Source: Escherichia coli (GTDB lineage: Bacteria; Pseudomonadota; Gammaproteobacteria; Enterobacterales; Enterobacteriaceae). From it: a stretch of DNA of 64,000 bases. Within the stretch, counting starts at the first letter, position 1, and every line of letters begins with the position of its first letter. This document shows positions 10,101 to 13,100 of this stretch, piece by piece. The DNA is taken from the NCBI RefSeq assembly GCF_048403405.1, contig NZ_CP183129.1; one strand, given 5' to 3'. A program made the position numbers.

Positions 10101-13100
10101 TCTTCAGCTCTTCGCCGAAGTACCAGGTGAGATGACCCGGCATATAGCCTATCTCTGGCGTTTGTTTGTCTGCGGCGTCTGGGAATGCGCAAATGGAATA
10201 ACCATTCAGTGGGTTATCGCCGTGGCGAAGCGCCAGAAAAGCCGCCGGGCCGTGGCAAAGGGAGATAACAAAACGGTCATTTTTGATTGCCCACTGTAAA
10301 GCGGCAGCTACGTCCTGGCTTTCAGGTAAACCAATAAGTGCGCCATGACCACCAGGAACAAAGATTGCTGCATATTCGCTATCAGCGTTGAGGCTGGCGA
10401 CAACATCCGCGAGTTTCTTCGGATTGCGGAACAACGATTTATGCTGCTCAAAGAATGGCATTACTTTTTCATCTTTGTGCGGCATAGCCCAGTATTCAAA
10501 CTTGGTCAACAGGCCGGAAATGGTCGCCACTTCGAATTCGAAACCTGCAGCATGGAGATGATACAACGGCAGCAACGTTTCAATCGGATGGTTACCGGTC
10601 GAGAACAGTTTTCCGTTATCGGTCGGCAAATAACGTTCGTCCGCGGCGATCACCAGAATTTTATGTTTACCGCGATACGGTTTTGGATAGTCCACGCCAT
10701 CAAGATCAGAGACAGGACTGGTATATTGGCTAAGCGAATATTCTGAAGGGAAGAATGCATTATCTTCAGCAATATCGACCTGCGGATTTTTACTTGTTTG
10801 AACAGTCATAGTGTATTCCTTATTGTTGCTTAGTTAGGGTGGTCACTATATTTGCGACTGAGCTGGTCGCTATTTTTAACCAGGCTGGAAAATTGAGTCA
10901 ATATATCGAAAGCGGTAGTCGGCGGGTGTAAGTATGTAATGATGATGCTGCACTGGTGTTGAATATTATTCACGCCAAATTTTCCTTATTGAGTAACGTC
11001 GTCGCAAGTGGCCTCAATGATTTTAGACCATTATCAGAGGTACGGGGTGGCGGGGAGAGATTTAGTGCTGTGGAATATTGTGGTGCTGATGAATATTTAT
11101 ATCGCGGATTGGTAGAGAAAAAGCTTATTTCATGCACTATTTTTGCAAATATTTCTATATGGGAAGCGTGTTTGTTACGGATTAATTCATAAAGAAATGC
11201 ATTTGGGTGTTAGCTTGAAGAGTAGCTGGTTGATGTTATTGTGCCAGGAGGGGCAGGGTAAGGTGCTGTATCGATATGCTTCGGCAATTGCGTGTGCCGC
11301 AGATGGAGATGAAATGCCAATAAAAAAGCCTGAGTTCGATGAGGGACGAACTCAGGCTAGTGTTAAGTTTTACAGTAACACGCCGCAGCGAGTTGGCTGA
11401 TTAGAACTGGTAGACGATACCAACTGCAAACTGGTCATCAGCTGCTGCGCCAGTAATGGCGGCGTCATCTTTATCCAGCATGTTGAATTTGTATGCAGTA
11501 TAAACGTTCATGTTCTTATTAAAGTAGTACCAGGTACCAACTTCAATGTAGTTCACACGGTCAGCGTCAACATATCTATGTCCAGGTACCCCTTTGATAT
11601 CTTTACCTTTAGAGTACACATAACCTAAGGACGGACGCAGACCAAAGTCGAATTGATACTGAACAACCGCTTCAAAGTTCTGGGTTTCATTGATAAGTTG
11701 ATCACGCATTATTGTATTGCCTTCTCGATCGGCAACACCTGTATCAATAGAACCCGGAGTCATATTACGAGTTTCGCCGTACATTACAGCTGCGTAGACA
11801 TTGTTCGCGTCATACTTTGCAGCCAATGACCACAGTTCAGCATTTGAACCGTTTCCATCGGCAACTTGATCGTTGGTGCGATCAGATTTGCTATATGCAC
11901 CAACGATACCAAAACCATTGATGTTATAGTCTACAGACAACGCATAGCCGTCACCATTTTGTTTCTTAGTGCTACGGTTGCTGTTTTTGCCTTGGTACTG
12001 AATCGCAAAATCAAGACCATCAACCAGGCCAAAGAAATCATAGTTACGGTAGGTTGCAACACCGTTGGTACGACCATTCATGAAGTTGTCAGCGGAAGCC
12101 CAGGAATCGCCACCCCATTCAACTAACATATCGGTATAAGCTGCGGCATCATAAGCAACACCGTAGTTACGGCCATAGTCAAATGATCCTAACTCGTTAT
12201 ATTTCAAACCGGCGAAGGTTAAACGGGTTTTTTCCTGGTTTTCACCTTCGGGCTTGCTGGCGTCGAGGTTGTATTCAAACTGACCAAAACCAGTCAGTTC
12301 GCTGGTGATTTGGGTTTCACCTTTAACACCGAAACGAGCATAGGAGGTATCTTCGTTTTCGCTGTTATTATCATCAGTATTTGACCAGATGCGTTCGCCA
12401 ACCATCTTGCCGTAGAAATCAACTTTATTGCCATCTTTATTATAAATTTCAGCCGCATTTGCTGCGCCAGCAACTAATAACGCCGGGACCAGCATTGCCA
12501 GAACTTTTCTTTTCATTATGTATTCCCTTGTGATTATAATCTTCATGAATATATCAATAAGTGCCGTTATCCAAAAAAAAGCACATTTGGATACTATTCT
12601 ATGAAGTTCATTTTATTTTAAGGATTACATGTAACAAATGTATTTAAAAGATTTCAAAATGTTTCTAATCTATTTAATATAATTCAGGATTATGAATTCT
12701 GAATATAAACATTCATGAAGATTATAAATGTATATCAATAAGTTATGAGTTGAACTGAAAGATAGGGAGTATCAATGATCGTTGCGCTAAACGGCTGGTG
12801 TGATCACGCGCACATTAATGAAGGCATAAAAAAAAGCCGGCATCATGCCGGCCCAAAAAATATAAACAAGACGATAAAAGGCTAATAACGGAGGCATCAT
12901 GACACAGAATAATAAAAAGGTATAATTGTAATCAGTGCTAATATATTGATTGAATGAATTAATAAAGCCGATATCAAAGATAAATAAAATCGCTCAAAAC
13001 GATTTTTCTTGTATTCACTGCCGTTGCGCAAAAATTATCTATTTGTTCAAAAAATGATTGAGTCTTGACTGGCTCATTCAATGTGGAAAAATGTGATTTT

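What the first reader, a model, noticed from the sequence alone, without database searches (positions are those of the whole stretch)
12828..12925. Short terminator-defined transcription unit between yedS and yedR, likely RseX
A strong minus-strand terminator (GCCGGCAT..ATGCCGGC plus U8, 3-prime end about 12828) lies about 90 nt downstream of a TACAAT -10-like element, with no protein gene on that strand, which fits an sRNA of about 90 nt. RseX is reported to lie between yedR and yedS and to repress ompA and ompC, so this is probably RseX. A plus-strand 8-codon ORF with a strong SD (GGAGG then ATG ACA CAG AAT AAT AAA AAG GTA TAA, 12899..12925) overlaps it antisense.
Basis: partly seen in the sequence, partly recalled or inferred. 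Interest (0 to 1): 0.3.

Follow-up and report, generated by a model that had tools for sequence, protein, structure and literature searches.

The report
Known small RNA gene rseX

Summary
The observation and the interpretation both hold. Window 12918..12828 (minus strand) is rseX. It scores 99 bits against Rfam RF01401 (gathering score 50). It matches the annotated 91-nt K-12 gene (b4603) at 90 of 91 positions with the same ends. It sits in the orthologous slot, divergent from drpB (formerly yedR) and upstream of yedS on the same strand. A TACAAT -10 ends 7 nt before the annotated 5' end. A 9-pair hairpin plus U8 forms the 3' end.

RseX nt 30-46 are invariant in 10 of 11 Escherichia and Salmonella-type copies (one Escherichia copy has one substitution). 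This block is predicted to pair with the Shine-Dalgarno regions of ompC and ompA, in line with published Hfq-dependent repression. Published work also shows H-NS/StpA silencing.

The 8-codon plus-strand ORF exists, but nothing supports it as a gene. Its GGAGG comes from one minority SNP (K-12 has GGAAG). Its variable codons change only non-synonymously. Its ATG is CTG in Salmonella-type copies. No upstream plus-strand promoter was found.

The same bases also read as an 11/12 sigma-70-like site on the plus strand, which remains unexplained.

Verdict: already known, low interest.

The parts
12828..12918 (-). rseX gene, the 91-nt RseX sRNA (5' end at 12918, 3' end at 12828)
   Evidence: Rfam RF01401 at 99 bits vs gathering score 50. 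90/91 identity and the same ends as K-12 b4603. Present in 4876 of 5426 complete E. coli genomes.
12925..12930 (-). -10-like hexamer TACAAT of the rseX promoter, ending 7 nt upstream of the annotated 5' end. No good -35 is present.
   Evidence: Read directly from the sequence. It varies within Escherichia (TACAAT, TTCAAT, TACCAT, TAAAAT). The literature reports a sigma-70 promoter supported by 5' RACE (PMC8313858). My simple scan did not score it at 9/12 or better because the -35 is weak.
12834..12854 (-). Intrinsic terminator hairpin (9 pairs, 6 G-C, loop UGA)
   Evidence: It is the only helix kept in the RNAalifold consensus of 11 copies, with one compensatory G-C to A-U change at its base.
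12828..12835 (-). U8 tail, serving as terminator tail and presumed Hfq-binding 3' end. Its first two U also close the hairpin.
   Evidence: The Hfq role is taken from established knowledge of Hfq-dependent sRNAs and from the literature on RseX. It was not tested here.
12873..12889 (-). Conserved core, RseX nt 30-46 (GUUAUUAGCCUUUUAUC), the predicted target-pairing (seed) region
   Evidence: Identical in 10 of 11 Escherichia and Salmonella-type copies; one Escherichia copy (L006) has a single substitution at nt 31. Predicted duplexes: RseX nt 29-44 with ompC -15..+1 (-16.4 kcal/mol), and nt 37-51 with ompA -23..-7 (-17.5 kcal/mol).
12893..12893 (-). Polymorphic nt 26: C here, U in K-12. It lies in the variable loop nt 24-29 and turns the plus-strand GGAAG into GGAGG.
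   Evidence: The window's exact allele occurs in only 240 of 4876 rseX-bearing genomes. It adds a G-C pair to the extended predicted duplexes: ompA -19.3 vs -18.0 and ompC -19.0 vs -16.6 kcal/mol.
12899..12925 (+). 8-codon ORF MTQNNKKV*, antisense to RseX nt 1-20 and the promoter. Judged not to be a gene.
   Evidence: Open in 7 of 7 Escherichia copies, but codons 4-5 change only non-synonymously (NN to KT, KI or KS) and a GGAG-type SD-like sequence is present in only two of the seven alleles (this window and E69). The ATG is CTG in 4 of 4 Salmonella-type copies. No plus-strand promoter-like site lies between 12204 and 12898.
12899..12926 (+). Sigma-70-like site ATGACA-N16-TATAAT (11/12), the same bases as the ORF. 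Function unassigned.
   Evidence: It is the only site at 11/12 or better in the 64-kb window, and 5.5% of shuffles of the AT-rich intergenic region contain one. It is conserved in Escherichia but falls to 9/12 (CTGACA-N16-TAAAAC) in Salmonella-type copies. It is not the mapped drpB promoter.

Best explanation
Window 12918..12828 (minus strand) is the rseX gene of an E. coli chromosome. It is a free-standing transcription unit. A sigma-70-type promoter (TACAAT -10, poor -35) starts transcription at about 12918, and an intrinsic terminator (9-pair G+C-rich hairpin plus U8) ends it at about 12828, giving a 91-nt RNA.

The RNA acts in trans. The U-rich 3' tail and the U-rich stretch before the hairpin bind Hfq. 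The conserved single-stranded core (nt ~30-46, GUUAUUAGCCUUUUAUC) pairs across the Shine-Dalgarno and start-codon regions of ompC and ompA mRNAs, and by published work also fimB and ihfB. This blocks ribosome binding and lowers OmpC and OmpA synthesis.

The gene lies in a 629-bp, 30% G+C intergenic region. In K-12 that region is silenced by H-NS with StpA as back-up, so the RNA is normally almost undetectable.

Shown here: identity, boundaries, synteny, conservation pattern and pairing potential. Taken from the literature (K-12): Hfq dependence, repression of ompA and ompC, H-NS silencing, and the 5' end. Inferred: that this strain's allele behaves the same way. Also inferred: because rseX always sits just upstream of an alternative porin gene (yedS, intact here), relief of silencing may switch on the alternative porin while RseX turns the major porins down.
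For: Identity and boundaries:
- Rfam rseX match at 99 bits against a gathering score of 50, full model length, and 2.6e-14 in the local scan.
- 90/91 identity and identical ends to K-12 b4603.
- The published RseX probe matches with one mismatch.

Context:
- The window is 100% identical to E. coli FDAARGOS_497, with the gene order porin(yedS) <- rseX | drpB -> yedJ -> dcm -> vsr.
- DsrA lies 8.3 kb away, as in K-12.
- The same order (porin, rseX, drpB-like, yedJ-like) is found in a Salmonella-type locus, and the two porins share 53% identity.

Structure and conservation:
- Terminator features, with a compensatory change in the terminator stem.
- RseX nt 30-46 are identical in 10 of 11 copies (one substitution in L006), while the 5' end, the loop nt 24-29 and the pre-terminator spacer vary.

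Pairing:
- The core is complementary to the ompC and ompA ribosome-binding sites.
- The best local energies are reached by only 5 of 150 (ompC) and 9 of 150 (ompA) dinucleotide shuffles.

Composition: intergenic G+C is 0.299 against 0.493 for the whole window.

Literature:
- PMC7648144: 91 nt, lowers OmpA and OmpC.
- PMC1804206 and PMC3632133.
Against: No expression data exist for this strain. In wild-type K-12 and Salmonella the RNA was not detected under standard conditions, so a native role remains poorly defined.

The pairing energies are only modestly better than shuffled controls (3-6% tails). Two alternative ompA registers score similarly, so the exact duplex is not fixed by my computation.

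The 5' stem-loop in the Rfam model is weak and is not recovered by RNAalifold. The full-length fold is no more stable than shuffles (z = -1.1).

The -35 region is poor and the -10 varies among Escherichia.

The yedS co-regulation idea is inference only. RseX shows no convincing pairing with the yedS ribosome-binding site.
Confidence: 0.95

Rival explanations
1. The plus-strand 8-codon ORF (12899..12925, MTQNNKKV) is a real translated micro-ORF, a small peptide or leader, encoded antisense to rseX.
For: It has an ATG start, and in this allele a GGAGG 4 nt upstream. The frame stays open with the same length in 7 of 7 Escherichia copies.
Against: The GGAGG is created by one SNP found in at most 240 of 4876 rseX-bearing genomes. 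K-12 has GGAAG, and E. whittamii, Escherichia sp. E1V33 and E. coli SCPM have no SD at all. All substitutions within the ORF are non-synonymous (NN to KT, KI or KS). The ATG lies in the conserved RseX segment UGUGUCAUGAU, and the stop lies in the conserved ATTATA next to the rseX start, so the open frame is explained by constraints on the other strand. In 4 of 4 Salmonella-type copies ATG is CTG and there is no SD. No plus-strand promoter-like site lies upstream within about 700 bp. No report was found in the literature searched.
Confidence: 0.02
2. The plus-strand ATGACA-N16-TATAAT site (12899..12926) is a working promoter that fires away from rseX at about 12933. Its -10 overlaps the rseX -10, so RNA polymerase bound there would exclude rseX initiation. 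It would either add an upstream drpB transcript or give a short divergent RNA.
For: It is an 11/12 match, the only one in the 64-kb window and rare in composition-matched shuffles (5.5%). The spacer length and both hexamers are unchanged in 6 Escherichia sequences, whereas the rseX -10 itself varies. RseX is notoriously poorly expressed.
Against: [quoted passage not shown] The -35-like half lies inside the conserved RseX sequence, so its conservation needs no promoter function. In Salmonella-type copies the site falls to 9/12 with a -10 lacking the final T. AT-rich, H-NS-bound DNA carries many promoter-like sequences. I could not obtain TSS tables to test it.
Confidence: 0.1
3. rseX is present and intact but is in effect a silent relic in this strain. 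It is never made at a level that matters, and its known effects appear only on artificial overexpression.
For: It was discovered as a multicopy suppressor. It is undetectable in wild-type K-12 and Salmonella under the standard laboratory conditions tested. It is missing from about 10% of complete E. coli genomes and was scored as a variable sRNA with repeated secondary loss (PMC3318445).
Against: The 17-nt core and the terminator are conserved between Escherichia and Salmonella-type copies while the flanks diverge strongly, which indicates purifying selection on the RNA. TraDIS scored RseX as required in S. Typhimurium (PMC3632133). The native transcript appears when H-NS is removed.
Confidence: 0.12
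4. The unit is mainly a cis-acting leader of the downstream porin gene. Transcription from the rseX promoter would read through the terminator into yedS, with the terminator acting as an attenuator.
For: rseX is co-directional with the porin gene and about 300 nt upstream of it, in both the window (12828 to 12516) and the Salmonella-type locus (11706 to 11406).
Against: The terminator is strong (9 pairs plus U8) and no alternative anti-terminator fold is evident. RseX acts in trans from plasmids that lack yedS. In K-12 yedS is a pseudogene, yet rseX is kept intact.
Confidence: 0.04

Closest known systems
RseX of E. coli K-12 (b4603; Rfam RF01401)
   Same: Same locus, strand relations, length (91 nt) and ends. 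90/91 identical, with the same terminator and the same conserved core.
   Different: One base differs: nt 26 is C here and U in K-12, in the variable loop. This is a minority allele, matched exactly in 240 of 4876 genomes. The neighbouring yedS porin gene is intact here but is a pseudogene in K-12.
Salmonella-type RseX (loci L012-L015)
   Same: Same Rfam family (94-97 bits), same core GUUAUUAGCCUUUUAUC, same type of terminator, and the same neighbours: porin downstream, drpB-like and yedJ-like genes divergent.
   Different: Different 5' 20 nt, different spacer before the terminator, and an unrelated promoter region with an 8-nt insertion. It has no antisense ATG.
Other Hfq-dependent porin-regulating sRNAs (MicC, MicF, MicA, RybB, OmrA/B)
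   Same: Short trans-acting RNAs with an intrinsic terminator and U tail that pair at the ribosome-binding sites of omp mRNAs. Like micF next to ompC and micC next to ompN (my own knowledge), rseX lies next to a porin gene.
   Different: No sequence relationship: only sub-threshold hits driven by the terminator appear in the permissive Rfam scan. RseX is not in the sigma-E regulon (PMC1804206) and is silenced by H-NS. It is co-directional with its neighbouring porin gene, not divergent from it.

Membership tests
RseX (Rfam RF01401) | Scores at or above the family's curated gathering threshold over the full model | tested here: met
   99 bits vs 50, model positions 1-94 of 94, E = 1.9e-12.
RseX (Rfam RF01401) | Collinear with the experimentally defined K-12 RseX (91 nt, same 5' and 3' ends) | tested here: met
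   90/91 identity across K-12 2033649..2033739, with no indels.
RseX (Rfam RF01401) | Orthologous position: between yedR/drpB (divergent) and yedS (downstream, same strand) | tested here: met
   RefSeq annotation of the identical strain and of K-12. DrpB equivalog match at 151.6 bits. The porin gives family-level matches.
RseX (Rfam RF01401) | A transcript of about 91 nt is actually made from the minus strand | not testable with these tools
   Only literature for K-12 is available: detected in hns mutants, 5' RACE from a plasmid (PMC8313858).
Hfq-dependent trans-acting base-pairing sRNA | Intrinsic terminator with a long 3' U tail and an adjacent U-rich stretch (Hfq-binding module) | tested here: met
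   9-pair hairpin plus U8, preceded by UUUAUAUUUUUU. Hfq binding itself was not tested.
Hfq-dependent trans-acting base-pairing sRNA | A conserved single-stranded seed complementary to the target translation-initiation regions | tested here: met
   nt 30-46 are identical in 10 of 11 copies, with one substitution in L006. They are unpaired in the centroid fold and complementary to ompC -15..+1 and ompA -23..-7.
Hfq-dependent trans-acting base-pairing sRNA | Pairing energy with targets clearly beyond chance | tested here: inconclusive
   Observed energies are reached by 5 of 150 (ompC) and 9 of 150 (ompA) shuffled sRNAs. The ompA register is ambiguous.
Hfq-dependent trans-acting base-pairing sRNA | Repression of targets depends on Hfq and on the pairing | not testable with these tools
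   Literature only (PMC8313858).
Translated small ORF (small protein or leader peptide) | Start codon and ribosome-binding site conserved among homologous loci | tested here: not met
   A GGAG-type SD-like sequence is present in only two of seven Escherichia alleles (this window and E69); K-12 has GGAAG. ATG becomes CTG in 4 of 4 Salmonella-type copies.
Translated small ORF (small protein or leader peptide) | Substitution pattern showing selection on the peptide | tested here: not met
   All changes in codons 4-5 are non-synonymous. Very few sites are available.
Translated small ORF (small protein or leader peptide) | A sense transcript that covers the ORF | tested here: inconclusive
   No plus-strand promoter-like site at 9/12 or better lies between 12204 and 12898. 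No transcriptome data were available.

The most novel reading that the evidence does not exclude
In Escherichia, the bases read as an 8-codon ORF are instead a near-consensus sigma-70 promoter on the opposite strand (ATGACA-N16-TATAAT, 12899..12926). Its -10 interlocks with the rseX -10, so polymerase bound there starts a divergent transcript at about 12933 and shuts out rseX initiation. Together with H-NS, this would explain why native RseX has been so hard to detect. Separately, the minority C26 allele may make RseX a slightly stronger repressor, because it adds a G-C pair against the ompA and ompC Shine-Dalgarno GAGG.
Probability: 0.1. Interest if true: 0.3.

Novelty: already known. Interest (0 to 1): 0.08.

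Why it matters
It matters little as a discovery. RseX was predicted in 2002, characterised in 2006 and is annotated in the K-12 reference.

Its practical value is in annotation. RefSeq/PGAP records, including the genome identical to this window, leave rseX unannotated, so a sequence-only reader recovering it is a correct call on an unlabelled gene.

Two small points may interest specialists:
- This strain pairs an intact yedS porin gene with rseX, unlike K-12. That makes it a better background for asking whether the silenced rseX-yedS pair is switched on together.
- The yedS-yedR intergenic region that contains rseX is used as a host-informative marker in E. coli source tracking (PMC11267920), without that paper mentioning the sRNA inside it.

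Tried and rejected
1. Full-length RNA duplex folding of RseX against 190-nt leaders gave long, interrupted and unrealistic duplexes. I replaced it with 24-nt local windows.

2. The genome-contig scan with TTAGCCTTTTATCNNCTNGTTTA was too strict. It returned only Escherichia plus one chance hit in an Aquificota MAG (L011) that has no Rfam rseX match.

3. The primary paper, Douchin et al. 2006 (PubMed 16513633), is not held. Its content is cited only through PMC8313858 and PMC7648144.

4. TSS evidence for the plus-strand promoter-like site could not be obtained. The dRNA-seq paper is not held, and the Cappable-seq supplements contain no rows for these coordinates.

5. RseX pairing with the neighbouring yedS leader: the best sites lie at +17..+40 and -56..-33, not at the ribosome-binding site, with energies within the shuffle range. 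I rejected yedS as a predicted target.

6. The 5' stem-loop of the Rfam model is not recovered by RNAalifold on 11 copies. The MFE z-score is -1.1. I treat it as weak or unsupported.

7. The minus-strand 37-aa ORF 12787..12900, which starts at the AUGAUG inside RseX, has no SD and no stop codon within the RNA, and it runs through the terminator. I rejected it as coding.

8. The permissive Rfam scan of 12400..13250 found nothing else. There were only sub-threshold hits to STnc430, RyhB, Esr41 and suhB, all centred on the terminator.
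Full report
**What is in the sequence**

On the minus strand, the region reads 5'-TACAAT TATACC | UUUUUAUUAUUCUGUGUCAUGAUGCCUCCGUUAUUAGCCUUUUAUCGUCUUGUUUAUAUUUUUUGGGCCGGCAUGAUGCCGGCUUUUUUUU-3'.
- TACAAT occupies 12930..12925.
- The 91-nt stretch after the bar runs from 12918 to 12828.
- The terminator scan reports a 9-pair hairpin (6 G-C pairs, 3-nt loop) at 12854..12834, followed by a T run. It is the best of the 7 terminator-like sites in 11500..14500, where 3.0 are expected by chance.
- RNA folding gives the same hairpin.
- On the plus strand, the 8-codon ORF ATG ACA CAG AAT AAT AAA AAG GTA TAA lies at 12899..12925, with GGAGG at 12890..12894.

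**What it is**

- A scan of the whole window against Rfam gives rseX (RF01401) at 12918..12829 on the minus strand. The score is 99 bits against a gathering score of 50, E = 1.9e-12, covering the full model.
- The window is an E. coli chromosome. A 1.2-kb piece is 100% identical to strain FDAARGOS_497 and is found in 4911 of 5426 complete genomes.
- The reference K-12 record annotates ncRNA rseX (b4603) at 2033649..2033739. It lies between drpB (b1963, formerly yedR, divergent) and the yedS pseudogene (same strand, downstream).
- The window's 12918..12828 aligns with that feature base for base. There are no indels and one difference, nt 26, which is C here and U in K-12.
- The published northern probe for RseX matches 12881..12907 with that single mismatch.
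- DsrA lies 8.3 kb away, as in K-12.
- PGAP-annotated RefSeq genomes, including the identical one, carry no feature over rseX. The gene is known but routinely left unlabelled.

**Surroundings**

- Downstream on the same strand is an intact 371-aa porin gene (11401..12516; RefSeq product 'porin'). It gives family-level matches to the OmpF, OmpC and PhoE models, all below their equivalog cut-offs.
- This is yedS. In K-12 it is frameshifted and has an internal stop.
- Upstream and divergent is drpB (DrpB equivalog, 151.6 bits), followed by yedJ, dcm and vsr.
- The yedS-drpB intergenic region is 629 bp at 29.9% G+C, against 49.3% for the window. That composition fits the reported H-NS silencing.

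**Comparative evidence**

- rseX is found in 4876 of 5426 complete E. coli genomes. The window's exact allele is found in 240.
- One scan of species-representative genomes recovered copies from E. whittamii and other Escherichia lineages.
- One metagenome scan, designed to exclude the Escherichia allele, recovered four copies at 94-97 bits. Their neighbours (STnc220 and a cspA-type leader) mark them as Salmonella-type.
- Synteny is conserved there: a porin of 398 aa, then rseX, then drpB-like and yedJ-like genes. That porin is 53% identical to the window's YedS.
- Across the 11 copies, the terminator stem is conserved, as is nt 30-46 (GUUAUUAGCCUUUUAUC; identical in 10 of 11, with one substitution in L006). 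The first ~20 nt, the loop nt 24-29 and the spacer before the terminator all vary.
- RNAalifold keeps only the terminator, with one compensatory G-C to A-U change at its base. The 5' stem-loop of the Rfam model is not supported.

**How it most likely works**

Local duplex prediction against the K-12 ompA and ompC leaders places the conserved core on the ribosome-binding sites:
- RseX nt 29-44 pairs with ompC -15..+1 as 14 contiguous pairs (-16.4 kcal/mol).
- RseX nt 37-51 pairs with ompA -23..-7 (-17.5 kcal/mol).
- Longer variants extend into the loop: nt 24-43 with ompC (-19.0 kcal/mol) and nt 19-40 with ompA (-19.3 kcal/mol).

These energies fall in the best 3-6% of dinucleotide-shuffled sRNAs. 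They are consistent with the mechanism but are not proof on their own.

The C26 allele adds a G-C pair against the GAGG of both Shine-Dalgarno sequences. That improves the extended duplexes by 1.3 and 2.4 kcal/mol over the K-12 allele.

The mechanism itself comes from the literature:
- RseX was isolated as a multicopy suppressor of RseP essentiality. It binds Hfq and represses ompA and ompC.
- Its 5' end was mapped by RACE downstream of a sigma-70-type promoter.
- It is undetectable in wild type and appears as a ~91-nt band plus a ~75-nt band when H-NS is removed, with StpA as back-up silencer.
- fimB and ihfB are further targets (PMC8313858; PMC7648144).
- It is not sigma-E dependent and was not detected in Salmonella (PMC1804206).
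- TraDIS scored it as required in S. Typhimurium (PMC3632133).

One point is my inference. Because the RNA gene always lies just upstream of an alternative porin gene inside the same AT-rich silenced region, relief of silencing could raise the alternative porin while RseX lowers the major ones. This strain, with yedS intact, could show that. K-12 cannot.

**The antisense 8-codon ORF**

- It stays open in 7 of 7 Escherichia copies. However, its ATG lies within the conserved RseX segment UGUGUCAUGAU, and its stop lies within the conserved ATTATA just upstream of the RseX start.
- The two variable codons change only non-synonymously: NN to KT, KI or KS.
- The GGAGG is produced by the minority nt-26 SNP. 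K-12 has GGAAG, and three lineages have no SD at all.
- In all four Salmonella-type copies the ATG is CTG and no SD is present.
- No plus-strand promoter-like site lies upstream within about 700 bp.
- No report of such a peptide was found.

I conclude that the ORF is a by-product of constraints on the other strand.

**An unexplained detail**

The same plus-strand bases read as ATGACA-N16-TATAAT (12899..12926), an 11/12 match to the sigma-70 consensus.
- It is the only site that good in the 64-kb window. It occurs in 5.5% of composition-matched shuffles of the intergenic region.
- Both hexamers and the spacer length are unchanged in Escherichia, whereas the rseX -10 itself varies.
[quoted passage not shown] The scan's TGGAAA-N16-CATAAT site at 13084..13111 fits that interval.
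- In Salmonella-type copies it falls to 9/12, with a -10 that lacks the final T.

It may be a chance or lineage-specific feature. It may instead be a divergent promoter whose -10 interlocks with that of rseX. I could not obtain TSS data to decide.

**Verdict**

The element is already known, so interest is low.

Noticed in passing
window 12899..12926 (+): Near-consensus sigma-70-like site ATGACA-N16-TATAAT (11/12), occupying the same bases as the 8-codon ORF. It is the only site this good in the 64-kb window. It is conserved in Escherichia, degraded in Salmonella-type copies, and is not the mapped drpB promoter. Its -10 overlaps the rseX -10 on the other strand.
   Followed up: partly
window 11401..12516 (-): The yedS porin gene is intact here (371 aa, RefSeq product 'porin'), whereas in K-12 it is a frameshifted pseudogene with an internal stop. 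It matches the OmpF, OmpC and PhoE models only below their equivalog cut-offs. It is 53% identical to the porin next to the Salmonella-type rseX.
   Followed up: partly
window 13146..13448 (+): drpB (yedR). PGAP starts it at 13167 (93 aa) in the identical genome. Published experiments place the main start at the ATG that corresponds to 13146 (100 aa) and the promoter within 13083..13146. A TGGAAA-N16-CATAAT site at 13084..13111 fits that interval.
   Followed up: partly
window 12828..12918 and RefSeq records NZ_CP033850.1, NZ_CP174267.1: PGAP-annotated RefSeq genomes carry no feature over rseX, even though it scores twice the Rfam gathering threshold. Only the curated NC_000913.3 record labels it.
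   Followed up: yes
window 12517..13145: The yedS-yedR intergenic region that contains rseX is used in the literature as a host-informative SNP marker for E. coli source tracking (PMC11267920). That paper never mentions rseX. The window's rseX allele (C at nt 26) is a minority one, at 240 of 4876 genomes.
   Followed up: partly
window 21254..21340 (+): DsrA sRNA gene (Rfam RF00014, 102.5 bits), 8.3 kb from rseX as in K-12.
   Followed up: no
window 2796..2868 (-), 3860..3946 (+), 54422..54721 (+): Five tRNA genes by Rfam, including a cluster of three at 54422..54721.
   Followed up: no
L011 11480..11502: A 23-nt match to the rseX core pattern in an Aquificota MAG contig. Rfam finds no rseX there, so I take it as a chance match.
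   Followed up: yes
L012 9392..9985 and L014 2541..3135: In the Salmonella-type loci, a cspA-type thermoregulator leader and the sRNA STnc220 lie about 1.7-2.4 kb from rseX, beyond the porin gene. There is no counterpart in the Escherichia window at that position.
   Followed up: no
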